Below are positions 7,211 through 26,079 of a stretch of 64,000 bases of DNA, piece after piece (the stretch's first letter is position 1; every line of letters begins with the position of its first letter). The translations under genes were made by a program, and so were the position numbers. This DNA comes from Vulcanimicrobiota bacterium. Lineage in GTDB: Bacteria > Vulcanimicrobiota > Xenobia > Xenobiales > QWHO01. A model generated the notes under the pieces. It did not search any database. It was given only the letters and a program-made list of their open reading frames with translations, and was not told where the DNA came from. The DNA lies in assembly GCA_039809865.1 (NCBI GenBank), contig JBDHVW010000005.1, positions 10,671-74,670 on the forward strand, read 5' to 3'.

Positions 7211-7262
7211 TTTTCGCAAACTTTCGTTGATCGGTTCAGAACGACATCGGAGGAGCCAAACC

Positions 7263-7751
7263 ATGCTGGAGAAACTCGATCAGAAGCTGCAATACCTCAA
7301 CGCGGTCCCGCCCCTGGCCAGCCGCATCACCGTGGGAATCGGATTCTTCCTCACCGGCTCGGGCAAGCTCGCCCACCTGGACCGGTTCACGGAGTTCCTG
7401 ACCAGCCTGCACATCCCGCTGGCGGCGCTGCAGGCGCCGTTCATCGCCGGGCTGGAGTATGTGGGCGGCATTCTGCTGCTGCTCGGGCTTTTCACGCGCC
7501 CGATCGCCTTCTTGCTGAGCGGCACCATGGTGGTCGCTCTGCTCACGGCGGACACGGCGCGCTTTCTGGACAGTTGGAAGAAGACCAGCGACATCGTGCC
7601 GACGGACGTGACCTCGTTCGCCTACCTGCTGCTGTTGAGCTGGCTCGTGTTTTACGGCGCGGGCGCAGTCAGCCTGGACCGGCTCGTGATCAAGCCGCTG
7701 GCGAAGAAACTCGCGTGGCCGTCCACCCGTGAGGCCCTTCAGCCAGCCTGA
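7263..7751 (+). CDS. DoxX family membrane protein
   Basis: Start taken at MLEKLDQ... (ATG 7263). Four predicted TM helices and a DoxX-like pattern (GIGFFLTGSGKLAHLD...GGILLLLGLFTR). Confidence 0.8.
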   Translation: MLEKLDQKLQYLNAVPPLASRITVGIGFFLTGSGKLAHLDRFTEFLTSLHIPLAALQAPFIAGLEYVGGILLLLGLFTRPIAFLLSGTMVVALLTADTARFLDSWKKTSDIVPTDVTSFAYLLLLSWLVFYGAGAVSLDRLVIKPLAKKLAWPSTREALQPA

Positions 7752-8340
7752 TCCCTCGCTCGGCCAGGCGCCCCAGGATGAGCTGGCGCGCCGAGCCCTG
7801 CATCGGAACGAGATCGGGCGCCGCGCCCGAGGCCACCTCGGCCTTCAGCCCGGCGAATTGCTCCGGACCACGCCCGTAGCCAACGGCCCCGCCGTGGGTC
7901 GCGGGCTTTCTCTGCTCGGTCGCGTCGGCGAAAAAGAAGTCCAGGTCGGAGTGCACCCCGAAGCTGCCGGTGGCGGCGCTGCCGAAGGCCAGGAACTCGC
8001 GCGGATAGGCCGGGAGCCCGGCCTTGAAGGCCTCGAAGTCGCCGTCCAGGCGCACCACGTGCTCGCCGACCTCCTGGTCGCTGTAAGGCTTGCGGATGTC
8101 GCGGCGCAGTTTCTCGAACATGCGCGACTGCTCGCGGGCGCCCGGCTCGCCTTCGTCGGCGCGACGCATGAGATCGTTGCCGGTGCGGAACAGCCAGTCA
8201 CCAAGCTCCTGACGGCTCTCGAGAGCTCCCGACGGGGGGGAGCTCGCCAGGAACGAATCGAGGTTGGCTTCCAGCACCCGGTGGCGCTCGGGTTTCAGGT
8301 CGAGGAGATTGAGGATGCGCTGGGCACCGATCCGGTCCAT
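7690..8340 (-). CDS. hypothetical protein with nucleotidyltransferase-like motif (GS-x10-DLD)
   Basis: 216-aa ORF containing FGSAATGSFGVHSDLDFFF, which matches the Pol-beta-superfamily NTase signature hG[GS]x9-13Dh[DE]. It overlaps the DoxX 3' end by ~60 bp on the opposite strand, and the antisense ORF 7729..9597 is junk-like. The call is uncertain. Confidence 0.45.
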   Translation of the reverse strand: MDRIGAQRILNLLDLKPERHRVLEANLDSFLASSPPSGALESRQELGDWLFRTGNDLMRRADEGEPGAREQSRMFEKLRRDIRKPYSDQEVGEHVVRLDGDFEAFKAGLPAYPREFLAFGSAATGSFGVHSDLDFFFADATEQRKPATHGGAVGYGRGPEQFAGLKAEVASGAAPDLVPMQGSARQLILGRLAERGIRLAEGPHGWTATRVSSPAA

Positions 8341-8346
8341 GAGAGA

Positions 8347-9555: not shown

Positions 9556-9574
9556 CGCCGACAGGACGATGCGC

Positions 9575-9823
9575 TTACTCGTGGTCGGCCGCCCTGAGAG
9601 CCGCCGAGATCTTGGCCGACAGGCCGGGCGGCAGCACCGCCGGCTGGAGTTTCGTCCGCACCTCCTCGAGCAGCGCGACCTCGAAGGTGTATTCCTCCAG
9701 GCAGACGGCGCAGGTCTCCAGGTGCTCCTTCATCTTCTCGGTCTCTTCGGCCGTCAGCTCGCGATCGAGGTAGTCGGGCAGCCGCCGGAAGAACATCTCG
9801 CAGGTATAGCGATCGGGGGTCAT
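9575..9823 (-). CDS. zinc-finger anti-sigma factor (RsrA/ChrR-like)
   Basis: Starts at MTPDRYTCEMFF (ATG 9823) with GGAGA 10 nt upstream. Contains the H-x3-C-x2-C motif (HLETCAVCLEEY) and lies immediately downstream of the ECF sigma factor gene with a 4-nt overlap. Confidence 0.7.
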   Translation of the reverse strand: MTPDRYTCEMFFRRLPDYLDRELTAEETEKMKEHLETCAVCLEEYTFEVALLEEVRTKLQPAVLPPGLSAKISAALRAADHE

Positions 9824-10395
9824 GCGGGTTGTCTCCTGTCTACCAATCCCGCTTCCAGGGCGGCATCCCACAACTGGCGTTGCAGCATCTTGCGGCCCCG
9901 GTGCAGGCGCGAGCGCACCGTCCCCACCGGCACTCCCACGACTTCGGAAATCTCGAGATAGGACATCTCCTGGACGAAATAGAGCGAGCAGACCGAGCGG
10001 AACTCGTCCGCCAGGCTCTCGAGGGCGCGCGTGACCTGCTCCTGGCTGAGGCGCCCGATGACCTGGCGGGCCGGGTCGGCTTGCGGATCTTCGAAGAGCC
10101 CGGCCCCCTTGGCGCTGCGAAAAAGGTGCAGGTCGGAGGTCTCGTCCACGCTGACGGTCACGGGGGCGCGTTTGGCGCGGCGATACTGCTCGAGGTAGAG
10201 GTTGGTCACGATGCGCAGGAACCAGGCCCGGAAGTTGGTGCCCCCCTGGAACGTGTGGAAAGCGCGGAAGGCGCGCAGCGCGGCCTCCTGCACCAGGTTC
10301 TCGGCCGCGTCTCCGTCGCCGCGCGTGAGATGGCGCGCGGTCGCGTAGGCCTGCGTAAGAACCGGCGTGAGGAGGGCCTCGAACTGCTCTACCAC
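9820..10395 (-). CDS. RNA polymerase sigma factor, ECF subfamily
   Basis: About 191 aa from a GTG start overlapping the pentapeptide gene stop. Sigma-70 region 2 (ENLVQEAALRAFRAFHTF...NFRAWFLRIVTN) and region 4 (LSQEQVTRALESL...EISEVVGVPVGTVRSRLHRGR) are both present. Confidence 0.8.
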   Translation of the reverse strand: MVEQFEALLTPVLTQAYATARHLTRGDGDAAENLVQEAALRAFRAFHTFQGGTNFRAWFLRIVTNLYLEQYRRAKRAPVTVSVDETSDLHLFRSAKGAGLFEDPQADPARQVIGRLSQEQVTRALESLADEFRSVCSLYFVQEMSYLEISEVVGVPVGTVRSRLHRGRKMLQRQLWDAALEAGLVDRRQPA

Positions 10396-11066
10396 ACGGG
10401 CCCCAGCAAGGCGGCCGAGGAGAGCGCCAATTCGCGCTCCCAGCCGCGGCAGTCGACCATGACGGTGCGCGCCAGGATGGCGTCGGCGAAGTTGCAGCCG
10501 GTCAGGTCGGCGCCGTTGAAGTTGGCCAGCGTCAGATCGGCCAGGGAAAGGTCGGCCAGGGCCAGGCAGGCCCGCGTGAAATCGGCTTCCACCAGCTCGG
10601 CGCCCTTCAGGTGCGCCCCCGCCAGGTTGGCCGAGCTGAAACGGGCTGCGGTGAGCTGAGCCCCGGTCAGGTTCGCCTCGGCCAGGGAGGCCTCGGTGAA
10701 GTCGGCTCTCGCCAGCAAAACCCCCGCCAGGCTGGCGCGGCCGAGGTTGGCCCATTTGGCCCACACCCCTTCGAGGCGCGCTCCCTCCAGGTGGGCGCCG
10801 GTCAGGTTGGTGGCCAGCAAGACGGCCCGGCTCAATTCGGCGTGGCGCAGGTCGCAGCCCGTCAGGTCGGCGGCCGTCAGCTCGGCGCAGCGCAGGTTGG
10901 CGCCGGACAGATTCGCCTCGCGCAGGTCGGCCGAGCCCAGGTCGGCACCCCGCAGGTCGAGACCGCGCAGGTCGGCGCCGCGCAAATCGGCATAGCCCAG
11001 ATTGGCGCCCGGCCCGAGAGAGCCGAGCGCCGCTCCCGTCCCCTTGTGGCGAACCTGAACGGCCAT
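10389..11066 (-). CDS. pentapeptide repeat protein
   Basis: 225-aa ORF made almost entirely of A(D/N)LxG-type pentapeptide repeats (ADLRGADLRGLDLRGADLGSADLREANLSGANL...). Confidence 0.8.
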   Translation of the reverse strand: MAVQVRHKGTGAALGSLGPGANLGYADLRGADLRGLDLRGADLGSADLREANLSGANLRCAELTAADLTGCDLRHAELSRAVLLATNLTGAHLEGARLEGVWAKWANLGRASLAGVLLARADFTEASLAEANLTGAQLTAARFSSANLAGAHLKGAELVEADFTRACLALADLSLADLTLANFNGADLTGCNFADAILARTVMVDCRGWERELALSSAALLGPVW

Positions 11067-11087
11067 CAGGCCGGCGGTTCGCGAAGG

Positions 11088-13614
<2,527 letters not shown>

Positions 13615-13634
<20 letters not shown>

Positions 13635-14664
13635 TCTTGATTCCCCCTTTGCCCAGAACTTGCGTGAACTCGGAGACCGGGTAGCGGCCGGTGATCAGGG
13701 CGTCCAGCGCCCGGGGAAACAGCTCGCGGAAGCGCCCCAGGTCGCGCACCGCGGCCTCGAAGGCGTCACGGCCCGCGTTGACCGTGCCCAGGATGACCTG
13801 ATTCTTGAGCACGATCGCGCGCATGAGCTCGCCCGACTCGAGGTTGATGACCGCCTTACGCCCCGGAACCCCGGTGAAGCAAAAGATTCCGTTGGTGCCC
13901 AGGAGTCCGAGCGCCTCGAAGGCCAGCTCCGAGGCTCCCACGGCTTCGTAGATCAGGTCCGGGGGAGCCAGCTCGGTCAGTGGCCCGGCGTGATAGCGAG
14001 CTCCCAGCGACTCGACCAGCTCGCTGCGGGGGCCGCCGGCCGGCTCGCGCGAGTAGACGACCGTCTCGAACCCTCGCGCCTTCAGCAGCATGGCCCCCAG
14101 CAGGCCCACCGGCCCGGCGCCCAGCACGAGCGCCCGGCGCCCTTTCCAGGGCAGCCGCTCCTGCACGTCGTCCACCTGGATCAGCGCCTTTTCGGCGATC
14201 GTGAGAGGCTCCACCAGGACGGCCCAGGGCCGCAGCTCCTCGGGCACCCGGATCAGGTAGCGCTCCTCTTCGACCACCAGCTCGGTATTGAAGCCGTGGA
14301 GCCCGTTGATGCCCCGTTCGGCGAACTTGCCGGTGAAGCAGAAGTCCTGACGGCCGGCGTTGCAGGCATCGCACTCGGCCAGACCGCACGGACGGCGCAC
14401 GGTCGGCACCACCAGATCTCCGACCGCCAATCGGGCCTTTGCCCCCACCTCGACCACCCGCGCCAGCGACTCGTGCCCGATCACCAGCCAGTCATCGCCC
14501 TGCGGCGGCGTGCCGTAGTGAAACCCGCAGATCTCCTTGTCGGTACCGCAGATCCCGACCTCCAGAACCCGGAGCTTGACCTGGGTGGGCGACTCGATGC
14601 CGGGCTCGGGCACCTCGATCAGCTCCACCTGGTGGGTGGACGGTTTGACAGCCAGGGCTTTCAT
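13615..14664 (-). CDS. zinc-dependent medium-chain dehydrogenase, glucose 1-dehydrogenase-like
   Basis: 349 aa from MKALAVKP (GGAGG RBS). The GHE, catalytic and structural Zn Cys motifs (GICGTD, GHESLARV, C-x2-C-x2-C...) and the overall pattern are very close to archaeal-type glucose 1-dehydrogenases. ATGA overlap with the GMC gene. Confidence 0.8.
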
Positions 14665-16223
14665 TGTTTTCCTCCATTCAGCGCGTAGGCGTGGGTTTGG
14701 GCGTTGAGTCGTCCCAGCAGGTGGTCGCCCACCCGCAAAGCGTTGGCCATGATGGTCAGGGCCGGGTTGGTGGCCGCGCTGGACGGGAAGAAGCTCCCGT
14801 CCACGCAGTAGAGGTTGTCCAGCTCGTGGGCGCGGCAGTTGCGATCCAGGGCCGACTGGCCCGGGTCGTCGCCGAAGCGCACCGTGCCGCACTGGTGGGC
14901 GGTCCCCGCCAGGGGGATGCGCTTGCCCAGGTAGAGCTCCATCGGGACGAGCTCCTCCTCGCACTGGATGTGGTTCAGCATCGATTTCAGGCGCCGTTCC
15001 AGTCGCTTGTGACCCTCCAGGTTGTTGGGGGTGTAGCTCAGCCGGATCCGTCCGTCTTTCTCGAGACCGACGCGGTTGAAAGGGTCCGGCAGGTCCTCGG
15101 ACGTCATCCAGAAGTCCAGGGCGTGGTCGGCCATCAGCTCCAGGGCCATTCCCGGCGCGATGGCCGGCGCGCCCGCCTCGAGCATCTCGCGGGTGGACTT
15201 GCCCAGCATCTGGATGTGCCCCATCGGGAACTCGAAACCGTCCTCGCCGAAGTAGAAGTCGTTCAAACCCAGCGTCTTTTGGAAACGCGTGGGGTTGGGA
15301 TGGCGCGAGATGGCCAGGAAAGCCGAGTTGTTGTGGGCCATGTAGTGGCGTCCCACCGTGTCCGAGCCGTTGGCCAGGCCCCTGGGGTGCCGCTCGTTGG
15401 CCGAGCGCAGCAGCAGGGCGGCCGAGTTGATCGCCCCGGCGGCCACCACGACGAGATGCCCGCGCACGATCTCGCCGCTTTCCAGCACGACGCCGGTAAC
15501 GTCGCGTCCGCTGGGCGAGGTCAGCAAGCGCTCCACTCTGGCTCCCGTGCGCAGCTCCACGTTCGCGTGGCGCAGAGCCGGGTCGACACAGGTGACCTGC
15601 GCGTCGGCCTTGGCGTTGAGCGGGCAGGGGAAGCCGTCGCAGGCCTGGCAACGGATGCAGGCCGACAGGTGGGGGCGCTGCTCGTCCAGTTGCAGGCCCA
15701 GCGGCAGGGGGAACGGATGCAGCCCCTGTCGGCGCAGGTCCTCGTACAGGTCGAGGATGCGCGGCTCGTGACGCACCGGCCCGTGCGGGTAGGGCGCCGA
15801 GCTGTAGGGCTCGGTGGGGTCGGCCCCGCGCTGCCCGTGCACACCGTAAAGTTGCTCGGCCTGGGTGTAGTAGGGCTCGAACTCGTCATAGCCCACGGGC
15901 CACGCGGGGGAAATTCCCCCGTGATGCTGCAGCTCGCCGAAGTCCTCGGCCCGAAAGCGCAGCAGGGCGGCTCCGAAGACCTTGGTATTGCCTCCGACAT
16001 AGTAGTGGATGCCTGGCGCGAACGCCTTGCCCTTTTTGTCCAGCCAGGACTCGTGCGCCTTGTAGCGATTGTGCACGAACACCTCGCGGGCATCCCAGTT
16101 CTGGGGCTCGCGCGGAAGATAGTCGCCCCGCTCGAGCAAGAGAATGCGCCGTCCCGAAGGCGCCAGGCGATGCGCCAGGGTTCCGCCCCCGGCGCCGGTT
16201 CCGATGATGATCACGTCGTACAT
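14661..16223 (-). CDS. GMC family oxidoreductase (FAD-dependent)
   Basis: 520 aa with an N-terminal FAD-binding GxGxxG (DVIIIGTGAGGG) and a C-terminal GMC signature (CGTVRFGDDP...VDGSFFPSSAATNP). Confidence 0.85.
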   Translation of the reverse strand: MYDVIIIGTGAGGGTLAHRLAPSGRRILLLERGDYLPREPQNWDAREVFVHNRYKAHESWLDKKGKAFAPGIHYYVGGNTKVFGAALLRFRAEDFGELQHHGGISPAWPVGYDEFEPYYTQAEQLYGVHGQRGADPTEPYSSAPYPHGPVRHEPRILDLYEDLRRQGLHPFPLPLGLQLDEQRPHLSACIRCQACDGFPCPLNAKADAQVTCVDPALRHANVELRTGARVERLLTSPSGRDVTGVVLESGEIVRGHLVVVAAGAINSAALLLRSANERHPRGLANGSDTVGRHYMAHNNSAFLAISRHPNPTRFQKTLGLNDFYFGEDGFEFPMGHIQMLGKSTREMLEAGAPAIAPGMALELMADHALDFWMTSEDLPDPFNRVGLEKDGRIRLSYTPNNLEGHKRLERRLKSMLNHIQCEEELVPMELYLGKRIPLAGTAHQCGTVRFGDDPGQSALDRNCRAHELDNLYCVDGSFFPSSAATNPALTIMANALRVGDHLLGRLNAQTHAYALNGGKQ

Positions 16224-16919
16224 CTAAGCGAGCTCCTTACGTCCGAATGCGCAGCGGAAGAGACAGGGCTGGTCGTTCAGGTGGTGCAGCTTGGCGCAGG
16301 CCACGGGCCCCCGGTAGAGCCAGCCCGCTGCCAGCATCCCCGCCAGAGGCGCCAGGAGGTAGATCCAGAGGTCGCGCAGGTCACCCGCCCAGAAGGCGGA
16401 GGCGAAGCAGCGGGCCGGATTCAGTCCCACCGGGGCGAAACAGTAGAGGTAGGTTGCGAGCAACCAGGCGGCCACCCCAGGCGTGTGCCGGTGGAAGCTC
16501 GAGTTGGAAACGGTCAGCACGGTCAGCATCATCCCCATCGCCAGGGCGAACTCGGCCACGAAGGCCAGCGCCGGGTGGGAGGCGGGATGAAGACTCAGGA
16601 AATCGACCGCGCGCAGGGCTTTGCCGGCCAGGAGGAAGGCCAGGCCGAGGCCCAGGAGCGCCCCGGCGAACTGGGCGAGCACGTAACCGGCAGCATCGCG
16701 AGGGGCGACCTTGCCCAGGCGCGTGAACGTAAGCGTCACCGCCGGGTTGAAGTGGGCGCCCGAGCGTTGGCCCCAGGGCGAAGTGGTGAGCGCGAAGGCG
16801 GTGCCGGCCAGCAGAAGGGCGCTGGCGGCACGATTCTCGTGGAGCACGAAACTCGTGACGCAAGCCACCAGCATGAAGCACCCGAGGCCGACGGCCTCGA
16901 TGAGATACTCCTTCTTCAT
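16224..16919 (-). CDS. MIP/aquaporin family channel
   Basis: 231 aa with six TM segments and two NPA boxes (HFNPAVT, GLNPARC). The stop abuts the GMC start. Confidence 0.8.
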   Translation of the reverse strand: MKKEYLIEAVGLGCFMLVACVTSFVLHENRAASALLLAGTAFALTTSPWGQRSGAHFNPAVTLTFTRLGKVAPRDAAGYVLAQFAGALLGLGLAFLLAGKALRAVDFLSLHPASHPALAFVAEFALAMGMMLTVLTVSNSSFHRHTPGVAAWLLATYLYCFAPVGLNPARCFASAFWAGDLRDLWIYLLAPLAGMLAAGWLYRGPVACAKLHHLNDQPCLFRCAFGRKELA

Positions 16920-18148
16920 CGCACCAGCACCGAGTTGAAGCCGCCGAACCCATCCTTCTCGCGGGCGGGGTTACAGGGGTCTTCTTCCCACCGCTCCGCG
17001 TCGATCAGGAACTTGTAGCTGTAGCGGCCCGGCGCGGGCGACGCGAGGCTGGCGCGCCAGAGGCCGCCCTTGCGCTCGAGCGGCACGAGCTCCTCCAGCC
17101 AGCTGGCCTGCAGCTCGACCTGGCTGGCGGCGGGCTCGAGGAATTGGAAGACGAGTCGTCCCCGGTGGAGCCTCGGGGTCGTCAGTTGCCCGAAGGACCG
17201 GGCCTGCTCGAGAGCCGCGTGGGCGTTGACGGATCCGAATCCCTGGCGCAGACGCGGCTGGCCCTCCAGGAAGTCGGCCGTGGACATCAAGATCTGTTTG
17301 ATGGCGCCGGGCGTAAGGTCGGGGTTGAGGGCCAGCATGCGGGCGGCCAGCGAGGCCACCAGCGGAGCGGCGAATGACGTCCCGTCCACGTGCTGGTAGT
17401 GGGTGCTTACCAGCTTGCGCTCCAGCAGCTCTTGCTCGAGGTCGTGCCGGGGGCGATCCAGCTGGTCGTCGGGCAGCGCCAGAAGCTCGGCCAGTCGCTC
17501 GGCGTGGCGCCACTCCGGGGTTCCTTTCACGAGGGGAGCGGCCACCCACATCGCGGGAGCGATCACCTCTGGCTTGAGCCCGTCGTCGCCGTAGCTCGAG
17601 CAGTAGAGCTCCGACCCGGCCGAGCCGCCCACGGTGAGAGCACGCGGGGCCGTCGCGGGTGGATAGGGGAGCGGATTCTGACTGCAACCCGAGTTGCCGG
17701 CCGCGACCACGACCGTGATGCCGCGGGCGACCAGGCGATCCACGGCGTCGTTCAGGCGCTCGTCCTCGCCGCCCAGCGAGATGCTGAGCACCTGGATGCC
17801 CAGTCGGTGGCCGTTTTGCTCGATCCACTCCAGGCCCTCCAGAATCGAGGCGTCGTCGCGGGGATCGACGGCGACCAGCACCACGTCGGCCTGCCAGGCC
17901 AGCCCGCGGTAAGCGCCGTCCGACAGGGTTCCGTCGCCGGCCGCCACGACCGATGTCTGGGTGCCGTGCCAGACGTTGTCACCCTGACCGTGGCGGGCCT
18001 TGATGCGCCCCTTCAGGTCGGGGTGCTCGCTGAACCCGGCGTCCAGGAACGCGATGGTGACCCCCCGGGCGCCGTCTCCCGGGGCCACTCCGAGCAACTC
18101 ACAGGTCGGCATGACGGCGAAGCGGTTGAGAACGTGAAGGTGACTCAT
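16916..18148 (-). CDS. S8 subtilisin-like serine peptidase with C-terminal CBM48/AMPK-beta-like glycogen-binding domain
   Basis: 410 aa from MSHLHVL (GGAGG RBS). The Asp/His/Ser triad motifs (AFLDAGF; HGTQTS; GTSFAAP) are present, and the C-terminal ~90 aa (LVFQFLEPAASQVELQASW...YSYKFLIDAERWEEDP) resembles CBM48. ATGA overlap with the MIP gene. Confidence 0.8.
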   Translation of the reverse strand: MSHLHVLNRFAVMPTCELLGVAPGDGARGVTIAFLDAGFSEHPDLKGRIKARHGQGDNVWHGTQTSVVAAGDGTLSDGAYRGLAWQADVVLVAVDPRDDASILEGLEWIEQNGHRLGIQVLSISLGGEDERLNDAVDRLVARGITVVVAAGNSGCSQNPLPYPPATAPRALTVGGSAGSELYCSSYGDDGLKPEVIAPAMWVAAPLVKGTPEWRHAERLAELLALPDDQLDRPRHDLEQELLERKLVSTHYQHVDGTSFAAPLVASLAARMLALNPDLTPGAIKQILMSTADFLEGQPRLRQGFGSVNAHAALEQARSFGQLTTPRLHRGRLVFQFLEPAASQVELQASWLEELVPLERKGGLWRASLASPAPGRYSYKFLIDAERWEEDPCNPAREKDGFGGFNSVLVR

Positions 18149-18588
18149 TGGACCTCCTTGAGCATGCGCTCGATTTCGTGCAGTTTGCGGTGGGTGAGCA
18201 CGCTGATCTCGTAGTCGAGCTCGGCGCGCTTGTCGGCGAAAGCGGACTGGCGGTTCTGGCTGATCATCAGCACTCCGGTGATGAAGATGGCCTCGACCGA
18301 CAGGATGATGCCCAGCAACCCGAACGGGTAAGCGTCGAAGCGCGCCGCCACGGTCAGGACCAGGGTGTTGAGCACGACCCAGAGGACGAACCACAGTCCG
18401 TGCACCACCAGGAAGTGCGGAGCACCGATGAAAGCGGCGATCCGGTCCGCCACGGCCTGATGCCAGCGGGTGTCGGCGTCGAACTCCTCGCGGGCGTAGC
18501 GCAGGCCACCCAGGGCCTTGCCGCATTCCTCGTTGGCGCAGAAGATGGCGTCGGGAGAGTTTTCCGTGCTGCAGACGGGGCAGATCAT
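18145..18588 (-). CDS. DUF1003 family membrane protein with N-terminal zinc ribbon
   Basis: 147 aa starting MICPVCSTENSPDAIFCANEECGK (zinc ribbon) followed by a DUF1003-like two-TM region; GGAGG RBS. The upstream 5' extension in the 6-frame track is R/G-rich junk. Confidence 0.65.
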   Translation of the reverse strand: MICPVCSTENSPDAIFCANEECGKALGGLRYAREEFDADTRWHQAVADRIAAFIGAPHFLVVHGLWFVLWVVLNTLVLTVAARFDAYPFGLLGIILSVEAIFITGVLMISQNRQSAFADKRAELDYEISVLTHRKLHEIERMLKEVQ

Positions 18589-19856
18589 GCCTCCACCCTC
18601 GCTTTCTCCCGCGAGGTGTCCAGGAACTGGACCAGCTCGCGCCGGAAGAACAGGTCCAGAGTCCAGTCCAGCGCGACCCGCAGCTTCTTCTCGAGCCGGG
18701 GCAGCTTGGCGAGGTAGATCGTGCGCCACAGCCACCAGGCGGGGAAGCCCGAGAAGTGCATCCCCATGACCTGGGCCACGCCGGTGCGCTTTCCCAGGGC
18801 GGCCAGCTGACCCAGCATGCGGTAGCCGAAGGCTTTCTTGGGCCGGCCGGTCAACTCGGCCACCAAATTCTGAGCCATCACCTTGCCCTGGCGCACGGCG
18901 TGCTGAGCGGTCGGTGGGCACGGCTCGCTGCTGAGCGCGTTGGGCACCAGGGCGCAGTCGCCCAGGGCCCAGACGCCGGGCCATTCCGGCAGCTGCATGG
19001 TGGCGTCCACCACCAGCCGGCCCCGCTCCTTGCGGCAGGGAAGCTCGTCGAGCAGCCGGGGAGCCTTTTGTCCGGCCGTCCAGACCAGCGTGCACGCCGG
19101 CAGCTCCTCGCCGCTCGCCAGCTGCACCGCCCCGTGGAGGTAGCTCTTCACGCGGGTGTTCAGGCGCACCTCGACACCCTGCCGGACGAGCTGTCGCTCG
19201 GTGTACTCCCCCAGGGCCCGGTCCAGCTCGGGCAGCACGCGGTCGCCCGAGTGCACCAGCACGGTGCGGATCATCTCCGGCCGCAGGTTGCGATACTGCC
19301 CCAGCGTCTCGCGGACGCAGTCATTGATGCCCGCGACCGTCTCCACTCCGGCGAACCCTCCTCCGGCCACCACGAATGTCAGCTCTTGCTTGCGCTGGGA
19401 GGCGGCGCACTCGGTATCCGCCTCCTCCAGCAGCGAGATAACGTGGTTGCGTAGCTTCAGGGCGTCGTGCAGGGACTTCATGCGGAGCGCTTGCTCCATT
19501 CCGGGAAGGCCGTAGTCGTTCGTCACCAGTCCCAGCGCCAGCACCAGCTGGTCATACGGGAGCTGGTGCGAATGGCCGTCAGCGCCGTGCGTGACCGTGA
19601 CCTCCTTGCGCATGAGGTCGATCGACCCGACCTCGGCGACCACCAGATCGCAGCTCTTGAGAAGGGTGCGGACGGGCGATACCACGTGCCCCAGCTCCAA
19701 CTCGCTCGAGGCGACCTCGTGCAGCATCGGCGTGAACAGGGTGAAGTTGTCCCGGTTGACGACGGTGATCTCGAGGTTGTGCCGCTTCTTGTGTTTCTGC
19801 AGGTGCTGGGCCACCGCCAGTCCGGCGAACCCCGCGCCCAGGATCAGGATTTTCAT
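18585..19856 (-). CDS. ndh: type II NADH:quinone oxidoreductase (NDH-2)
   Basis: 423 aa from MKILILGAGFAGL. Two Rossmann dinucleotide-binding motifs (GAGFAG..., VVAGGGFAGVE) and the overall NDH-2 pattern are present. Confidence 0.85.
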   Translation of the reverse strand: MKILILGAGFAGLAVAQHLQKHKKRHNLEITVVNRDNFTLFTPMLHEVASSELELGHVVSPVRTLLKSCDLVVAEVGSIDLMRKEVTVTHGADGHSHQLPYDQLVLALGLVTNDYGLPGMEQALRMKSLHDALKLRNHVISLLEEADTECAASQRKQELTFVVAGGGFAGVETVAGINDCVRETLGQYRNLRPEMIRTVLVHSGDRVLPELDRALGEYTERQLVRQGVEVRLNTRVKSYLHGAVQLASGEELPACTLVWTAGQKAPRLLDELPCRKERGRLVVDATMQLPEWPGVWALGDCALVPNALSSEPCPPTAQHAVRQGKVMAQNLVAELTGRPKKAFGYRMLGQLAALGKRTGVAQVMGMHFSGFPAWWLWRTIYLAKLPRLEKKLRVALDWTLDLFFRRELVQFLDTSREKARVEA

Positions 19857-19944
19857 CGTTGACCTCGCTTTCATGAAGGTCAATGACGGGGGGATGGAAA
19901 GGTTCCCGACTTTGGAAGGAATTTTGATACGGATGGATCCAATG

Positions 19945-19972
19945 AAAAAGGCCCGCCGGGGTGGGCGGGCCT
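19945..19972 (-). terminator. rho-independent terminator of the Cys-repeat protein gene
   Basis: On the minus strand: GGCCCGCC-CACCCC-GGCGGGCC hairpin followed by TTTTT. Confidence 0.6.
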
Positions 19973-19998
19973 CGTTTCTAGCGGACCGGTTGCCGAGC

Positions 19999-20430
19999 TT
20001 ATTTGGCCGAGCAGCCGTCTTTGCCCGAGCAACTGGACTTGCCGCCTTCCTTACCGCCGCAGCCGTCTTTGCCCGAGCAGCTGGACTTGCCTCCTTCCTT
20101 ACCGCTGCAGCCGTCTTGGCCCGAGCAACCCGATTTGCCGCTGTCTTTGCCGCTGCAGCCGTCTTTGCCCGAGCAGCCTGATTTGCCGCCGTCCTTGCCG
20201 TTGCAGCCGTCTTTGCCCGAGCAGCCCGATTTGCCGCTGTCTTTGCCGTTGCAGCCGTCTTTGCCGGAGCAGCCGGACTTGCCGCTGTCTTTGCCGTTGC
20301 AGCCGTCCTTACCCGAGCAGCCGTTCTTCTCTTTGTCGGTCTGAGCCAGGCCAGGCAGGGCGGCGCCTCCGGCCACCACCATTCCGGCCACCGCGGCCGC
20401 CAGCATCTTGGTGAAATCGCGTCTCTTCAT
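19999..20430 (-). CDS. TAT-signal secreted protein built of seven 16-aa Cys/Gly/Lys/Asp repeats
   Basis: 143 aa with a twin-arginine signal (MKRRDFTKMLAAAVAGMVVAGGAALPGLAQT) followed by 7 x CSGKDGCNGKDSGKSG; 14 cysteines in a regular C-x5-C-x9 spacing. Confidence 0.65.
   Translation of the reverse strand: MKRRDFTKMLAAAVAGMVVAGGAALPGLAQTDKEKNGCSGKDGCNGKDSGKSGCSGKDGCNGKDSGKSGCSGKDGCNGKDGGKSGCSGKDGCSGKDSGKSGCSGQDGCSGKEGGKSSCSGKDGCGGKEGGKSSCSGKDGCSAK
20003..20344. repeat. 48-bp tandem repeat, ~7 near-identical copies (coding)
   Basis: Direct visual periodicity (ccgtctttgcccgagcag...gacttgcc...) gives the 16-aa protein repeat. There are no spacers, so this is not a CRISPR array. Confidence 0.9.
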
Positions 20431-20514
20431 GAGGTTCCTCCACGGGTTTTCTGGGCGCCGGAGCGCTCCTTACCCCATGCAATGACGGACCCCCCGATCA
20501 GGTTCCCGGAATCT

Positions 20515-20528
20515 GTGAACTGGTTCAC
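20515..20528. promoter_or_regulatory. perfect inverted repeat GTGAAC-tg-GTTCAC upstream of the Cys-repeat protein gene
   Basis: 6-2-6 palindrome about 90 bp upstream of the ATG at 20430; operator-like. Confidence 0.3.
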
Positions 20529-20726
20529 GCGCGCTTCGTAACAGGGATCACGGAATCTCCAGCCGGCCAGAGATAAGATACGGCCATCGGAAGGAGATGA
20601 TGATGGTGAGGAAGCGCAGTCACAACACGCACTGGCGCCACTGGAGCGCCGGGCGCCCCAAACATAAAAGCTAACGAGTCTTGGAGGTCCGGTTCCCCGG
20701 GGGGAGCACCGGGCCTCTCTTCGTTG

Positions 20727-20775
20727 AGACGGTAGACGGGAGAGGGTAGACGGGAGACGGGAGACCGGAGACGGT
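20727..20775. repeat. tandem degenerate heptamer (GAGACGG)x7 microsatellite followed by CTGTCGAC x2
   Basis: gagacgg tagacgg gagaggg tagacgg gagacgg gagaccg gagacgg in intergenic DNA between 20872 and 20430. ctgtcgactgtcgac follows at ~20826-20840. Confidence 0.6.
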
Positions 20776-20871
20776 CGAACTAGAGCCCGCCCACCCATCG
20801 TCTGTCTGCCGCCGTCCCCCTGTTGACTGTCGACTGTCGACCCCCCGTCCCCTTACCCGGACCACGACTCC

Positions 20872-21513
20872 CTAGCGGCGCTTGCGCACCAGCACGCCGC
20901 CCACGTAGGTGCGGCCGCCGACCTCGCCCAGTTGGCCGCCGCCCGCGCCGTCGCGGGCGTTCTCCAGCAGGTAGCCCGCGTAGGAGTGGTCGTCCTCGAA
21001 CTCGCCGAGCTTCGCCAGGCGCGTTTTGAGAATCCCCACGCGCCCCTCGGTCTGGATGTCGGCCCCGTCGTGAATGGGGCTGAGGAAGAGATGCACGTCG
21101 TCGATCACCTCGCGAGAGCCAGGCGCCATCCCGTAATGGGGGGTGACGGCGGTCGCGATGGCGCCCATCACGGGCACGTCACGCTTGCCCAGGGGGCCGG
21201 CCAGGCGGGAGCCGAACTCGGCCAGCTTGAGCTGAGGGCCCTCCTGCAGAGCCTCGAAGGCGGTCTTGCAGAGGGTCTGGGCCAGCGGGCCCGTGCCCGC
21301 GGCCAGCAAGGCCGCCACGGCCACGTGAACCTGCTTGCTGAGGCGAACGTCGCTCGTCTGGCCCAGCGTCTTGAGCGCCGCCATCGCGAGGGGAAGAGCG
21401 TCCGGTTGCTCCATGGCCACGAACGTGTCCTGGATGAGCGTCCGCTCCACGGGCGAGAAACTCGCCGTGGGGCGGCTCATCGTCGGATAGCTCCCGATAC
21501 TCCCCGTCAGCAT
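20872..21513 (-). CDS. hypothetical protein
   Basis: 213-aa ORF with natural composition, whereas the antisense ORF 20932..21519 is Arg/Gly-rich. I recognise no domain. Confidence 0.5.
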   Translation of the reverse strand: MLTGSIGSYPTMSRPTASFSPVERTLIQDTFVAMEQPDALPLAMAALKTLGQTSDVRLSKQVHVAVAALLAAGTGPLAQTLCKTAFEALQEGPQLKLAEFGSRLAGPLGKRDVPVMGAIATAVTPHYGMAPGSREVIDDVHLFLSPIHDGADIQTEGRVGILKTRLAKLGEFEDDHSYAGYLLENARDGAGGGQLGEVGGRTYVGGVLVRKRR

Positions 21514-21553
21514 GGTTAAAATTTAACGCAAGCTTCTGAAACGGGGCTGAAAG

Positions 21554-22003
21554 CTAGGCGGCGGCCTGCTCCAACGTCGAGGTGCATTGCGGGCAGCGGG
21601 TGGCATTGAGGGGGATGGCGGTGCAGCAGAAGGGGCAATCCTTCGTGGTAGGGGCGGCTTCGGGCTCCGGCGCTTTGTGCCGCATCCGCTCGATGGCCTT
21701 CACCATCATGAAGACGGCGCCGGCCACGATCAGGAACTGGATGATGGTGTTCAGGAAGACCCCGTAATTGATGGTGGCGGCGCCCGCCTTCTGGGCGTCG
21801 GCCAGAGTGGAGTAGGCCGGCCCGCCCAGCGTGAGGAAGAGGTTGGTGAAGTCGACCCCACCCATCAGTTTTCCGATCGGGGGCATGATGATGTCATTGA
21901 CCAGCGAGGTGACGATCTTGCCGAAGGCGGCGCCGATGATCACACCGACGGCCATATCGACCACGTTTCCCCGCTGGATGAAGTCGCGAAACTCTTTAAG
22001 CAT
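21554..22003 (-). CDS. mscL: large-conductance mechanosensitive channel MscL with C-terminal zinc-ribbon extension
   Basis: 149 aa from [31 protein letters not shown] (canonical MscL TM1). The C-terminal tail [19 protein letters not shown] forms a Cys4 ribbon. Confidence 0.85.
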
Positions 22004-22175
22004 CGCCGCCGGTTCGCGAGAGTGCGGGCCCCTCCTCCCTTGCATGAAGGTCGGGAAATGTCGTGAAATTTTTTGCTGTTTGTACGATTTTCGAAAGGAG
22101 TGCCTCGAGGGGGAGAGAATTTCAATTTTGACCCCGGAGCGCTCTGGGGAAAAGAGGTGTTGCAAAGCGAGTAAC
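22004..22175. promoter_or_regulatory. divergent promoter region between mscL and thpR
   Basis: 172-bp intergenic stretch of relatively lower GC with T-rich segments (gaaattttttgctgtttgtacgattttcgaaagg). No specific motif is asserted. Confidence 0.3.
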
Positions 22176-24731: not shown

Positions 24732-25283
24732 ATGGAAATGCTGGAGGAACGACTCTATACGGCCGAGGAGCTCGAGGACTTCGAGCGCCTGGACGACAAT
24801 TTCCACTACGAGTTGGATCAGGGGAGGCTCGTCAAACTGATGCCTCCCATGCCCCTTCATGGCCGCCTCTGCGCAGAGATTGCCCGCGTCCTCGGAAATC
24901 ATTGCCAGGAGACGGGCGATGGGGTGGTTCTGGGCAACGATAGCTGGTGCTTGTTGGAAAGGAAGCCGGACACCGTACGCGGTCCCGATGTTGCGGTCGT
25001 GACGCGGGCTCGCTGGGAGGCGTCCGACCCCAACAAGATGCTGGAAGGCGCGCCGGACCTCGTCGTCGAGGTCGCCAGTCCGTCCCAGACGCGAGCTTCG
25101 CTACTCAAGAAGGCCTGGCAGTACCTGCAGGCCGGAACCGCGCTCGTTTGGATATTTTATCCGGCCCAGCGAAAAGTCGTCATTTTGACTGCCGACGACG
25201 ATATCGAGCTGGTCACCGGCGTCTTGAGTGGAGGTCCCGTCTTGCCCGGGTTCAGCTGCCAGGTAGAGGATCTATTCGGGTAG
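24732..25283 (+). CDS. Uma2 family endonuclease (DUF820, PD-(D/E)xK-like)
   Basis: About 183 aa from MEMLEERLYTAEELEDFERLDDNFHYELDQGRL..., followed by PDLVVEVASPS (the D...E-V-x-S nuclease core of the Uma2 family). Confidence 0.7.
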   Translation: MEMLEERLYTAEELEDFERLDDNFHYELDQGRLVKLMPPMPLHGRLCAEIARVLGNHCQETGDGVVLGNDSWCLLERKPDTVRGPDVAVVTRARWEASDPNKMLEGAPDLVVEVASPSQTRASLLKKAWQYLQAGTALVWIFYPAQRKVVILTADDDIELVTGVLSGGPVLPGFSCQVEDLFG

Positions 25284-26004
25284 CGCGGCGCAGGACGACG
25301 CCGCCGATGGAAACCGACTGGTCCGTTTCGCGGATGCCGGTGTAGGCCAGCTTCGGGGCCGCGATCCGCTCGGCGGTCCGGGTGCTGGCCTCCATCTCCT
25401 GACGCAGGTGACCGGCCCGCAGGGCGAGGTTGGGGAAAAGCTCGGTGCGATCGCGGAAGAAGAACGTCCCCAGCGCGCCGCTGGTCCAGCAGTCCATGGC
25501 CAGGCGGAGCCCCGAAAAGAAGCCGTGCTCGGCGATGCGATCGCGCAAAGAGGTCTTGTCTTCGCTGATTTTGAGCCGATGGCCCGAGATCTCCGCCGCC
25601 ATGGGGATGGTCTTGTCGCCTCGCAGCTGCCGTCCCACCAGCTCGCCCGAAACCGTCTGCTCGGCCTGGTAGGTGCGGTCGCGACTCTGCCAGTCGTAGA
25701 GCCAGTTGCCATTGGCCCGATAGCCCTCGCAGTGGCCTCCCGAGCGCACCCCGTAATAGAGGGAGTCGGGGTGAAAGAGGACCTCTGCGGTCTGGTCCGG
25801 GCCCATATCCACCACGACCATGCCGTCGGGCCTCTGCGAGCACCCGAAGACGAAGCTCTGGTCCAGCGGGGCCTGCAGGTGGGCGGAAAGACCGGCCTGG
25901 GTCTGCTCCACGACCAGCGACTCGGGCAGATAGCTGCCCTGGGGCAGCACCGCCTTCCAGCTCCGGCCCGAGCCCTCGAATTGCACTCCGCTGGGTGTAA
26001 CCAT
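25252..26004 (-). CDS. hypothetical protein with C-terminal SIGGVVLRRATR motif
   Basis: 250-aa ORF with natural composition, whereas the overlapping alternative frames are R/G/P-rich. It shares a C-terminal motif with 3637..4365 and 4596..7022. Confidence 0.5.
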   Translation of the reverse strand: MVTPSGVQFEGSGRSWKAVLPQGSYLPESLVVEQTQAGLSAHLQAPLDQSFVFGCSQRPDGMVVVDMGPDQTAEVLFHPDSLYYGVRSGGHCEGYRANGNWLYDWQSRDRTYQAEQTVSGELVGRQLRGDKTIPMAAEISGHRLKISEDKTSLRDRIAEHGFFSGLRLAMDCWTSGALGTFFFRDRTELFPNLALRAGHLRQEMEASTRTAERIAAPKLAYTGIRETDQSVSIGGVVLRRATRIDPLPGS

Positions 26005-26079
26005 ACCGATACACCCTAGACCGGCGCGCTGAAAAAAAGCTCGCAGGAGCGTTCGCGCACGTTTCCGAATGCGCGGCCC

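What the first reader, a model, noticed from the sequence alone, without database searches (positions are those of the whole stretch)
19999..20430. TAT-exported protein consisting of seven 16-aa Cys2 repeats (metallothionein-like periplasmic protein?)
After a clean twin-arginine signal (RRDFTKM + hydrophobic + ALPGLAQT), the mature protein is essentially 7 x CSGKDGCNGKDSGKSG, giving 14 Cys with fixed C-x5-C-x9 spacing plus abundant Lys/Asp/Gly. TAT export implies folding or cofactor loading in the cytoplasm. A regular Cys array suggests metal or cluster binding. The 48-bp DNA repeats are nearly identical, implying recent expansion and possible copy-number variation. The gene has its own terminator and a palindromic operator-like site upstream.
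Basis: seen in the sequence. Interest (0 to 1): 0.55.

Follow-up and report, generated by a model that had tools for sequence, protein, structure and literature searches.

The report
Orphan cysteine-repeat bufferin-like peptide gene
This is a real gene for a small exported peptide with 14 evenly spaced cysteines; it belongs to the recently described class of enzyme-modified, copper-binding bacterial peptides (bufferins/captophorins), but here it sits away from its modifying enzymes and carries about twice the usual number of cysteines.

Summary
Window 19999-20430 (-) encodes a 143-aa protein with a twin-arginine-type signal, then six full and one truncated 16-aa units (CSGKDGC plus a 9-aa linker), giving 14 Cys. 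It has a strong ribosome-binding site and its own terminator.

It is not an isolated oddity. It belongs to an unnamed family of small signal-peptide proteins built from C-x-G-K-x-G-C motifs (706 50%-identity clusters). A profile comparison relates the family to BufA2 bufferins (hhalign 97.9%). In every relative with enough flanking DNA, in at least 8 phyla, the gene lies directly upstream of an MNIO enzyme (PF05114) and its DUF2063 partner.

The window, from a Candidatus Xenobia genome, has neither enzyme in 64 kb. The positional orthologue in a sister species has 3.5 units, no RR motif, and the same order: peptide, terminator, NDH-2, DUF1003. That sister species carries a precursor-less MNIO-DUF2063 pair on another contig.

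Best reading: a split bufferin/captophorin system. The peptide is probably modified in trans (Cys to thiooxazole), exported, and acts as a periplasmic multi-site copper or soft-metal chelator. A conserved ECF-type promoter motif precedes both it and NDH-2. The palindrome is not supported as an operator. This is a new variant of a known kind.

The parts
19999..20430 (-). Gene for the 143-aa Cys-repeat precursor-like peptide (stop codon included)
   Evidence: ORF list and translation. 81 homologues, all small signal-peptide proteins. A positional orthologue, P0001, lies in L071.
20344..20430 (-). Signal peptide (aa 1-29) with twin-arginine-type n-region KRRDFTK and the family-conserved AAVAG h-region. 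Likely cleavage is GLA|QT.
   Evidence: TIGR01409 scores 15.3 bits (cut-off 16.7) and PF10399 gives E 0.011. A12, A13 and G16 are nearly invariant in the family alignment. AlphaFold2 models only this part as a helix. The cleavage site is inferred from the A-x-A rule.
20002..20319 (-). Core: 6 full and 1 truncated 16-aa unit (CSGKDGC heptad plus 9-aa G/K/D/S linker), 14 Cys
   Evidence: TRF: 48 bp x 6.5, 89% matches. Unit-by-unit comparison. C38, K41 and C44 are invariant, and G40, G43 and K47 nearly invariant, across 44 family members.
20436..20441 (-). Shine-Dalgarno GGAGGA, 5 nt before the ATG
   Evidence: Read from the sequence.
20480..20507 (-). ECF-type promoter-like motif GGGAACC-N13-CGTCATTG upstream of the peptide gene
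   Evidence: Exact pattern matches. It is the only conserved block when aligned to the orthologous upstream region in L071. Function is inferred.
20515..20528 (.).
   Evidence: Single exact copy. Not beyond chance (30 such 6-N2-6 repeats in the window) and not conserved.
19948..19973 (-). Intrinsic terminator between the peptide gene and NDH-2
   Evidence: Terminator scan. An equivalent hairpin with a T-run follows the orthologue in L071.
19881..19907 (-). Second copy of the promoter-like motif, GGGAACC-N12-CGTCATTG, upstream of NDH-2
   Evidence: Conserved upstream of the L071 NDH-2.
18585..19856 (-). Type II NADH dehydrogenase (NDH-2), the conserved downstream neighbour
   Evidence: Pfam Pyr_redox_2 (E 7e-44) plus NDH2_C. 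Same gene order in L071. The start at 19856 is inferred from alignment with L071.
18145..18588 (-). DUF1003 membrane protein, conserved after NDH-2
   Evidence: Pfam PF06210. Same order in L071.
9575..10410 (-). ECF sigma factor (about 9820-10410) and a small zinc-finger anti-sigma factor (9575-9871). Candidate regulators; the link is not shown.
   Evidence: Best NCBIfam hits are SigH_actino (146.7 bits) and antisig_RsrA (46.1 bits), both below cut-off. Pfam zf-HC2.
7227..7751 (+). DoxX protein. DoxX is a core gene of bufferin clusters; here it lies 12 kb away and the link is uncertain.
   Evidence: Pfam DoxX E 6e-17. Best NCBIfam hit is the HvfX family, 53.5 bits against a cut-off of 80. A weak promoter-motif match (3 mismatches) lies at 7203-7229.

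Best explanation
The gene encodes a precursor-type peptide of the bufferin/captophorin superfamily, that is, signal-peptide-bearing, Cys-rich substrates of MNIO enzymes.

Proposed pathway:
1. It is transcribed as a monocistronic unit from an ECF-type promoter that it shares with the adjacent NDH-2 operon, and it ends at its own terminator.
2. The 143-aa product is intrinsically disordered.
3. Its 14 cysteines, arranged as seven C-S-G-K-D-G-C pairs, are most likely converted in the cytoplasm to 5-thiooxazoles. The enzymes would be an MNIO and its DUF2063 partner encoded elsewhere in the genome (a split gene cluster).
4. The peptide is then exported and its signal is cleaved. In this genome export is probably by Tat; in the orthologue it is by Sec.
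5. In the periplasm it acts as a high-capacity chelator or buffer for Cu(I)/Cu(II), or another soft metal, with roughly one metal per Cys pair and so about seven sites.

Shown: gene structure, family membership, enzyme linkage in relatives, the orphan arrangement conserved in the orthologue, and an unlinked enzyme pair in the sister species.

Inferred: modification in trans in this genome, the chemistry, the metal, the stoichiometry, the export route and the regulator.
For: **Enzyme linkage in relatives**
- All 23 genome loci found by similarity to the peptide alone carry an MNIO gene 60-250 bp downstream. A DUF2063 gene follows in 21 of them; in the other two the contig ends inside the MNIO gene.
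- This includes loci whose precursors consist only of CxGKDGC repeats: L001 (Xenobia), L003, L004 and L011.
- Seven further pure-repeat relatives also have an MNIO downstream: P0004, P0002, P0010, P0034, P0038, P0013 (L073) and L031. DUF2063/HvfC_N was seen in the first five, and DoxX in four of those five (all but P0038). The last two contigs showed the MNIO only.

**Relationship to BufA2**
- Profile-profile comparison of the family against BufA2 gives probability 97.9%, E 6e-13.
- L007 is a bona fide NF050166 BufA2 (66.1 bits against a cut-off of 60).
- Hybrid precursors carry a CSGKDGC motif next to BufA2 units.

**Leader**
- The leader is about 70% identical to that of the MNIO-linked P0013.

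**Orthologue and sister species**
- The orthologue P0001 has the same peptide-terminator-NDH-2-DUF1003 order.
- The same species also carries an MNIO+HvfC_N pair with no Cys-rich ORF within 8 kb on either side (L076). The two assemblies are 99.78% identical over 8 kb.
- That enzyme is closest to the MNIOs next to P0013 (74%) and L001 (69%).

**Literature**
- Stand-alone bufferin precursor genes, and several precursors per enzyme pair, are known. Precursors are rarely found in genomes without MNIO (PMC12452194).
- Thiooxazoles and Cu binding were shown for Buf1, fontiphorin and oxazolin (PMC11626156, PMC13097082, PMC11252979).

**Structure**
- The AlphaFold2 model is disordered (pLDDT 46.6).
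Against: - No MNIO or DUF2063 lies anywhere in the 64-kb window (tblastn; Pfam over most ORFs). The rest of the source genome could not be examined.
- The peptide does not reach any curated bufferin model. NF050166 gave no hit even at E <= 10.
- Its Cys context (Gly-Cys-Ser/Asn-Gly-Lys) has not been tested experimentally. MNIO enzymes are selective for residues flanking Cys (PMC13097082).
- No copper-specific gene lies nearby.
- The promoter motif is not found upstream of the sister species' MNIO, so co-regulation of enzyme and substrate is not evident.
- The profile similarity could be inflated by low-complexity composition.
Confidence: 0.55

Rival explanations
1. This is an enzyme-independent derivative. 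In this Xenobia lineage the precursor was uncoupled from MNIO and now works unmodified, as a periplasmic poly-thiol (metallothionein-like) metal or redox buffer. Doubling the Cys pairs would compensate for the lack of heterocycles. It would be expressed with NDH-2 under a thiol or oxidative-stress ECF sigma factor.
For: - The orphan arrangement next to NDH-2 is conserved in two species, and both genes carry the promoter motif.
- The target has the highest Cys count among pure-repeat members: 14, against a mode of 6 and a maximum of 12.
- A SigH/RsrA-like sigma/anti-sigma pair lies in the same 18.5-kb segment.
- Unmodified HvfA still binds 2-3 Cu(I), though weakly (PMC11252979).
- The literature allows that some stand-alone precursors act unmodified (PMC12452194).
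- E. coli NDH-2 has Cu(II)-reductase activity (PMC1847454, PMC7558416).
Against: - The sister species keeps an intact precursor-less MNIO/partner pair, most similar to enzymes that sit next to CxGKDGC precursors. That pair needs a substrate.
- The leader keeps the family-conserved features.
- Unmodified HvfA did not compete with BCA for Cu(I).
- This NDH-2 lacks the CxxC motif implicated in Cu reduction (sequence).
- The sigma factor's link to the motif is untested.
Confidence: 0.27
2. This is a decaying relic: an orphan precursor gene left behind after cluster break-up, no longer functional, whose repeat array drifts in copy number.
For: - No enzymes lie nearby.
- Copy number differs between species.
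- The literature mentions non-functional orphans as a possibility.
Against: - The ORF is intact in two species that are only ~72% identical at DNA level.
- The CSGKDGC heptads, ribosome-binding site, promoter motif and terminator are all conserved.
- Synonymous differences separate units that encode identical peptides.
Confidence: 0.07
3. This is a structural, collagen-like or cell-envelope repeat protein with no role in metal binding.
For: - The Gly-X-Y-like periodicity gives weak hits to collagen-like adhesin models (SclB E 1.8e-5, 23.9 bits).
- Metagenomic collagen-like proteins contain GKDGCDGKDGC stretches.
Against: - The score is far below the cut-off (325).
- The triplet register breaks in every 16-aa unit, there are no prolines, and there is no anchor.
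- The protein is only 114 mature residues.
- The collagen-like hits lack signal-peptide homology and MNIO linkage.
- True relatives are all MNIO-linked.
Confidence: 0.03
4. This is not this gene at all. The real feature would be the antisense ORF 20003-20344 (+), or a non-coding tandem repeat.
For: The antisense ORF (113 aa, P/L/S/Q-rich) is open, and its third codon positions coincide with those of the minus-strand gene. The third-position bias of variation (10 of 15 sites) therefore cannot tell the two apart.
Against: - The plus-strand ORF starts with TTG and has no ribosome-binding site.
- The minus-strand product has homologues across genomes of 41-70% GC, with conserved signal peptides, always co-directional with MNIO genes.
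- The ribosome-binding site, promoter motif and terminator all fit the minus strand.
Confidence: 0.02

Closest known systems
BufA2 bufferins (BUF_6/12Cys; NCBIfam NF050166), periplasmic Cu-binding RiPPs made by the MNIO BufB and the DUF2063 protein BufC
   Same: - Both have an N-terminal signal peptide and a Cys- and Gly/Lys-rich core.
- Both share the C-x-G-K-x-x-C submotif (compare CAGKNSC and CKGKGGC with CSGKDGC).
- Profile-profile probability is 97.9%.
- The same MKRRDFTK leader occurs in many BufA2 precursors.
- Relatives of the target lie in the same precursor-MNIO-DUF2063(-DoxX) clusters.
- Hybrid precursors carry both motif types.
   Different: - The target does not hit NF050166.
- It lacks the 6-Cys unit, with its Asn and GGC signatures.
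- It is a regular 16-aa tandem array with 14 Cys.
- It is not next to MNIO/DUF2063.
Oxazolin (HvfA) and fontiphorin (FonA): the Buf_EGKCG, or 'Lys-Cys', group of captophorins
   Same: - Both are tandem short Cys motifs in pairs. HvfA has AEGKCGEGKCG, and the long family members have 17-aa units with two Cys each.
- Both have signal peptides and MNIO+DUF2063+DoxX clusters.
- One Cu(I) is proposed per pair of modified Cys (PMC11252979, PMC12452194, PMC13097082).
   Different: - In the target each Cys is preceded by Gly and followed by Ser, Asn or Gly (G-C-S-G-K), not K-C-G.
- Spacing is C-x5-C, not C-x4-C.
- AlphaFold2 gives no beta-helix. One was reported for a mid-size EGKCG protein.
- The EGKCG group is mostly from Pseudomonadota; the target is from Xenobia.
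Buf1 / DUF2282 bufferins
   Same: Both belong to the same enzyme class and export logic, with ECF sigma/anti-sigma regulation nearby (P0004 locus).
   Different: The target has no DUF2282 domain, no folded 4-Cys small-protein core and no Pfam hit.
Bacterial metallothioneins (SmtA/BmtA type)
   Same: Both are small, Cys-rich and likely bind soft metals.
   Different: Metallothioneins are cytoplasmic, lack a signal peptide, use C-x-C/C-x-x-C clusters and are not linked to MNIO. The target gave no sequence match in Pfam, NCBIfam or the PDB.
Csp1 copper storage proteins (Tat-exported four-helix bundles lined with Cys)
   Same: Both would be Tat-type exported, multi-Cys, high-capacity Cu stores. 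Properties of Csp1 are from my own knowledge.
   Different: The target is predicted disordered, with no helices beyond the signal peptide, and has no related domain hit.

Membership tests
BufA2 bufferin (NF050166 / BUF_6/12Cys) | Match to the curated family HMM above its cut-off (60 bits) | tested here: not met
   No hit to NF050166 even at E <= 10. As a control, L007 scores 66.1 bits.
BufA2 bufferin (NF050166 / BUF_6/12Cys) | Six (or twelve) conserved Cys in the unit CKGxNxCKGxGGC...CAGKNSCKGKGGC | tested here: not met
   The core consists only of CSGKDGC heptads and linkers. Only the C-x-G-K-x-x-C submotif is shared. The profile-profile relationship is 97.9%.
BufA2 bufferin (NF050166 / BUF_6/12Cys) | N-terminal export signal peptide | tested here: met
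   There is a signal-like N-terminus, and AlphaFold2 models only this part as a helix. The h-region motif is conserved in the family.
Bufferin/captophorin gene cluster (precursor-MNIO-DUF2063, often with DoxX) | Precursor gene immediately upstream of the MNIO (PF05114) and DUF2063/HvfC_N genes | tested here: not met
   The 64-kb window has neither enzyme. The arrangement is met in all 23 genome loci for the MNIO, and for DUF2063 in the 21 whose contig extends far enough. It is also met in 7 further relatives for the MNIO, 5 of them with DUF2063. Stand-alone precursors are recognised in the literature.
Bufferin/captophorin gene cluster (precursor-MNIO-DUF2063, often with DoxX) | MNIO and partner present somewhere in the same genome | not testable with these tools
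   Only 64 kb of the source genome is available. The sister species (RecA 94% identical) has an unlinked, precursor-less pair (L076).
Bufferin/captophorin RiPPs | Cys converted to 5-thiooxazole (-4 Da per Cys, ~302-305 nm absorbance), with Cu binding dependent on the modification | not testable with these tools
   This needs mass spectrometry, UV spectroscopy and metal titration. It is known for Buf1, FonA and HvfA.
Buf_EGKCG / oxazolin (Lys-Cys captophorins) | Repeated E-G-K-C-G five-residue motif (Cys preceded by Lys and followed by Gly) | tested here: not met
   The sequence has G-C-[S/N/G]-G-K and no KCG anywhere.
Tat (twin-arginine) substrates | S/T-R-R-x-F-L-K motif followed by a moderately hydrophobic h-region, and an HMM match | tested here: inconclusive
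   KRRDFTK matches RR-x-F-x-K. TIGR01409 scores 15.3 bits against a cut-off of 16.7, and PF10399 scores 15.6 against 24. The same MKRRDFTK start occurs on a multicopper oxidase (L059). The orthologue lacks RR. No Tat predictor or tat genes were available.
Collagen-like adhesins (Scl family) | Long uninterrupted Gly-X-Y repeats, an LPXTG anchor and an HMM score above cut-off | tested here: not met
   23.9 bits against a cut-off of 325. The triplet register breaks once per 16 aa and there is no anchor.
Bacterial metallothionein | Cytoplasmic location, C-x-C/C-x-x-C metal clusters and a family domain match | tested here: not met
   A signal peptide is present. There is no Pfam, NCBIfam or PDB match.

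The most novel reading that the evidence does not exclude
A RiPP precursor may have been taken over for a new, enzyme-independent role. In this Xenobia lineage a bufferin-type precursor would have left its biosynthetic cluster, doubled its Cys pairs and acquired a Tat-type signal. It would now serve, unmodified, as a periplasmic poly-thiol metal or redox buffer, co-regulated with NDH-2 by a SigH/RsrA-like thiol-stress sigma factor.

A related point does not depend on that reading. The twin-arginine leaders on this peptide and on many BufA2 precursors would mean that some bufferins use Tat export. That would answer the open question of how signal-peptide RiPP precursors avoid export before they are modified.
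Probability: 0.25. Interest if true: 0.7.

Novelty: new variant of a known kind. Interest (0 to 1): 0.55.

Why it matters
Bufferins, oxazolins and captophorins are a newly recognised and very widespread bacterial way of handling copper stress. Their substrate diversity is still being mapped.

This locus matters for four reasons:

- **An unnamed precursor type.** It defines C-x-G-K-x-G-C repeat peptides as a precursor type that no Pfam or NCBIfam model captures, although they are linked to MNIO enzymes in many phyla.
- **A natural split cluster.** Precursor and enzymes are unlinked, and this can be followed across two sister species. That allows a test of modification in trans against function without modification.
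- **A regulatory link.** The peptide shares a conserved ECF-type promoter motif with a respiratory NDH-2. This points to coupling between periplasmic metal or thiol buffering and respiration.
- **A possible answer to an export question.** The twin-arginine-type leaders could explain how signal-peptide RiPP precursors are held in the cytoplasm until they are modified. The literature raises this question explicitly (PMC12452194).

Tried and rejected
- **Direct look-up of the protein.** The exact sequence is not on record.
- **Pfam and NCBIfam on the peptide.** Only sub-threshold Tat-signal and collagen-like hits.
- **PDB sequence search.** Nothing.
- **AlphaFold2 with a 44-sequence alignment.** pLDDT 46.6 and no fold, so no fold search was run.
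- **Rfam on 19800-21000.** Only noise.
- **Sigma-70 promoter scan.** No site.
- **Palindrome as operator.** It is unique as an exact string but statistically ordinary, and it is not conserved.
- **Codon-position test for the coding strand.** Uninformative, because the antisense ORF shares the same third positions. The strand was decided by homology and expression signals instead.
- **MNIO/DUF2063 in the window.** None found by tblastn, nor by Pfam on about 55 ORFs.
- **Metagenome scan.** Eight of the 35 hits are collagen-like look-alikes with GKDGC triplets, unrelated to the family.
- **Promoter motif elsewhere.** It is not found upstream of the island's sigma factor or of the sister species' MNIO. 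The match before DoxX has 3 mismatches and is not above chance.
- **NDH-2 as a copper reductase.** The CxxC motif implicated in E. coli is absent here, so this remains only a lead.
- **Family motif in the held supplements of the two survey papers.** Not found.
Full report
**1. What is there**

Window 19999-20430 on the minus strand is an ATG-initiated ORF of 143 codons. GGAGGA lies 5 nt before the start. A GC-rich hairpin with a T-run follows 25 nt after the stop, at 19948-19973.

Tandem Repeats Finder reports a 48-bp unit, 6.5 copies, 89% matches and score 423.

The product is MKRRDFTKMLAAAVAGMVVAGGAALPGLA / QTDKEKNG / six full 16-aa units (CSGKDGC plus linkers such as NGKDSGKSG) / CSGKDGCSAK. 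That gives 14 Cys with C-x5-C-x9 spacing. The mature part is made of G, K, S, C and D almost exclusively.

The units differ at 3-11 of 48 nucleotides. Units 1 and 2 encode identical peptides with five synonymous changes. The array is therefore conserved at the peptide level but is not a very recent amplification.

An antisense ORF (20003-20344, +) is also open, and its third codon positions coincide with those of the minus-strand gene. Codon-position statistics therefore cannot decide the strand. Homology, the ribosome-binding site, the promoter motif and the terminator all point to the minus strand.

The twin-arginine motif fits RR-x-F-x-K but scores just under the curated cut-offs: TIGR01409 at 15.3 against 16.7, and PF10399 at 15.6 against 24.

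**2. It belongs to a family, and the family is tied to MNIO enzymes**

A search of 5.8 billion proteins returned 81 relatives. All are 80-205 aa and all are 'hypothetical'. Each has a signal peptide followed by two to four C-[SK]-G-K-[DES]-G-C motifs.

A profile of 44 members finds 706 clusters (50% identity) at E <= 1e-3 among 1.84 billion representatives; the 150 best listed are 61-191 aa. In the alignment, C38, K41 and C44 are invariant. G40, G43, K47 and an A-A-x-x-G motif in the signal peptide are nearly invariant.

A scan of 185,579 species genomes for relatives of the peptide gave 23 loci. They come from Xenobia, Armatimonadota, Ignavibacteriales, Vicinamibacteria and other Acidobacteriota, Bdellovibrionota, Opitutaceae and Planctomycetota.

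- Many of these precursors are bona fide BufA2 bufferins with the same MKRRDFTK start. L007 scores 66.1 bits on NF050166, above the cut-off of 60.
- Every one of the 23 loci has an MNIO gene (PF05114, E 1e-107 in L007) 60-250 bp downstream. A DUF2063 gene follows in 21 of them; in L015 and L022 the contig ends inside the MNIO gene.
- This includes the precursors made only of CxGKDGC motifs: L001, L003, L004 and L011.
- Seven further pure-repeat relatives also lie upstream of an MNIO: P0004, P0002, P0010, P0034, P0038, P0013 and L031. DUF2063/HvfC_N was seen in the first five, and DoxX in four of those five (all but P0038). ECF sigma genes flank three of them and MerC one. The last two contigs showed the MNIO only.

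Profile-profile comparison of the CxGKDGC family with BufA2 gives 97.9% probability, E 6e-13. Low-complexity composition may inflate this figure. Hybrid precursors carry a CSGKDGC motif before or after BufA2 units.

The target itself does not reach NF050166 or any other curated model. It has no PDB relative. AlphaFold2 predicts it to be disordered apart from the signal helix (pLDDT 46.6).

**3. What is unusual about this copy**

*No modifying enzymes nearby.* No MNIO or DUF2063 gene exists in the 64-kb window, by tblastn or by Pfam on most ORFs.

*Most Cys among pure-repeat members.* Among 209 family members the Cys count peaks at 6. The highest pure-repeat value is 12, and the only others with 14 are BufA2 hybrids.

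*Source organism.* The source is a Candidatus Xenobia (Eremiobacterota) genome. Its RecA is 94-95% identical to the closest relatives, one of them named as a Xenobia MAG.

*The orthologue.* The best hit, P0001 (110 aa), is the positional orthologue in the sister species (assembly GCA_020063305.1).
- It has the same order: peptide, hairpin terminator, NDH-2, DUF1003.
- DNA identity is 72% over window 20177-17868.
- It has only 3.5 units (CSGKDGCSGKQGEKSA, 8 Cys).
- Its signal has no RR (MNRNELNR...).

Copy number therefore varies between species, the orphan arrangement is conserved, and the Tat motif is not.

*Unlinked enzymes in the sister species.* The MNIO next to P0013, whose leader is closest to the target's, has its best named relatives in Xenobia/Vulcanimicrobiota. 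One of these, P0334, lies in assembly GCA_045863235.1 together with an HvfC_N/DUF2063 gene. No Cys-rich, signal-bearing ORF and no C-x-G-[KQ]-x-x-C motif occurs in any frame within 8 kb on either side.

That assembly and the one holding P0001 are 99.78% identical over 8 kb, so they are the same species. That species therefore has the precursor and the enzyme pair at separate loci. Its MNIO is most similar to those adjacent to CxGKDGC precursors with RR leaders: L073 at 74% and L001 at 69%.

**4. Regulation**

The window contains 30 perfect 6-N2-6 inverted repeats, and the palindrome is missing from the orthologous upstream region and from the 70 loci held when the loci scan was run.

The element that is conserved, in otherwise unalignable spacers, is GGGAACC-N12-13-CGTCATTG.
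- It occurs upstream of the peptide gene (20480-20507) and upstream of NDH-2 (19881-19907).
- It occurs again upstream of both orthologues in L071.
- No sigma-70-like promoter was found.
- The AAC/CGT pattern is ECF-like. This classification is from my own knowledge of ECF promoters, and the spacing is on the short side.

The same 18.5-kb segment holds an ECF sigma factor and a 98-aa H-x3-C-x2-C anti-sigma factor. Their best matches are SigH and RsrA models, both below cut-off. It also holds a DoxX whose best match is the HvfX RiPP-maturation family, also below cut-off. A link between these genes and the motif is not shown.

**5. Most likely mechanism**

The peptide is a bufferin/captophorin-type precursor. 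By analogy with Buf1, fontiphorin and oxazolin (PMC11626156, PMC13097082, PMC11252979), an MNIO-DUF2063 complex would convert the cysteines to thiooxazoles in the cytoplasm. The signal peptide would then take the product to the periplasm, where pairs of heterocycles bind Cu(I)/Cu(II). Seven C-x5-C pairs suggest about seven sites.

Here the enzymes would act in trans. Antoine et al. report stand-alone precursor genes and genomes with several precursors per enzyme pair. They also report that precursors are rarely found in genomes lacking MNIO (PMC12452194).

The main rival is that this lineage uses the peptide unmodified, as a poly-thiol buffer within a stress regulon that includes NDH-2. E. coli NDH-2 has Cu(II)-reductase activity (PMC1847454, PMC7558416), but the CxxC motif implicated there is absent here.

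**6. Comparison with known families, and novelty**

The target fails the sequence-model and motif tests for both BufA2 and the EGKCG/oxazolin group, and it fails the cluster test. It shares the leader, the C-x-G-K-x-x-C submotif and, through its relatives, the enzymatic context.

The C-x-G-K-x-G-C repeat type has no Pfam or NCBIfam model. Its motif was not found in the held supplements of the two survey papers. It may be hidden in their 'Cys-Lys' or unclassified sets.

Neither survey, nor the Buf1 paper, mentions Tat signals. A literature search for MNIO together with twin-arginine found nothing relevant. One caveat applies: many of the MKRRDFTK loci were retrieved with that very peptide as a search pattern, so its 'invariance' in my BufA2 alignment is partly an effect of how the loci were found.

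**Verdict:** a real gene and a new variant of a known kind. Interest is moderate.

Noticed in passing
window 3605-22076: This ~18.5-kb segment holds the peptide gene, NDH-2, DUF1003, an S8 peptidase, an aquaporin, a GMC oxidoreductase, a GH63-like hydrolase, the ECF sigma/anti-sigma pair, DoxX and MscL. It is absent at this position in related Xenobia MAGs. In L063, L066 and L069, window 1-3604 and 22077 onwards lie about 130 bp apart.
   Followed up: partly
window 3628-4365(+), 4587-7022(+), 20872-21522(-), 25252-26082(-): Four proteins without Pfam hits share a C-terminal motif, x-[IV]-G-G-V-x-[LV]-(R/P)-x-R-K-R. One of them is the gene just upstream of the peptide gene. It could be a lineage-specific sorting tag or a shared domain end.
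   Followed up: partly
window 20726-20775: A heptamer tandem repeat, (GAGACGG)x7, which reads CCGTCTC on the coding strand. It lies in the 440-bp spacer upstream of the peptide gene. Unexplained.
   Followed up: no
window 9575-10410 (-): An ECF sigma factor and a small soluble H-x3-C-x2-C anti-sigma factor. Their best matches are the SigH_actino and RsrA models (thiol-stress type), both below cut-off. A pentapeptide-repeat ORF lies just upstream at 10389-11066.
   Followed up: partly
window 7227-7751 (+): A DoxX protein whose best NCBIfam match is the HvfX 'Cu-binding RiPP maturation' family (53.5 bits, cut-off 80). A 3-mismatch copy of the promoter motif lies at 7203-7229.
   Followed up: partly
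L005-L010, L014-L023, L033-L062 (many): Dozens of BufA2-type bufferin precursors from Acidobacteriota, Armatimonadota and others start with the exact twin-arginine octapeptide MKRRDFTK. The same start is found on a multicopper oxidase in L059. Tat-type leaders on bufferins are not mentioned in the papers read. Note that this octapeptide was one of the search patterns, so the retrieval is biased towards it.
   Followed up: partly
L076 7694-9759 (GCA_045863235.1): An MNIO+HvfC_N pair with no adjacent precursor. A 133-aa ClpX-zinc-finger protein with 8 Cys is transcribed divergently, and a long inverted repeat lies at about 7818-7872 in the spacer.
   Followed up: partly
P0019, P0031, P0033-P0037, P0039, P0043, P0076 (Verrucomicrobiota-type members): Many family members end in a conserved C-terminal -[GS]-[SA]-I-L tail after the last Cys motif. 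Its function is unknown.
   Followed up: no
L030, L032, L035-L037, L042, L050, L054: Large collagen-like (Gly-X-Y) metagenomic proteins containing GKDGCDGKDGC runs. They are compositional look-alikes of the repeat, with no signal homology or MNIO linkage.
   Followed up: no
window 14661-19856 (-): NDH-2, DUF1003, a mycosin-like S8 peptidase, an aquaporin and a GMC oxidoreductase have abutting or overlapping stop and start codons. They probably form one operon downstream of the peptide gene's terminator.
   Followed up: no
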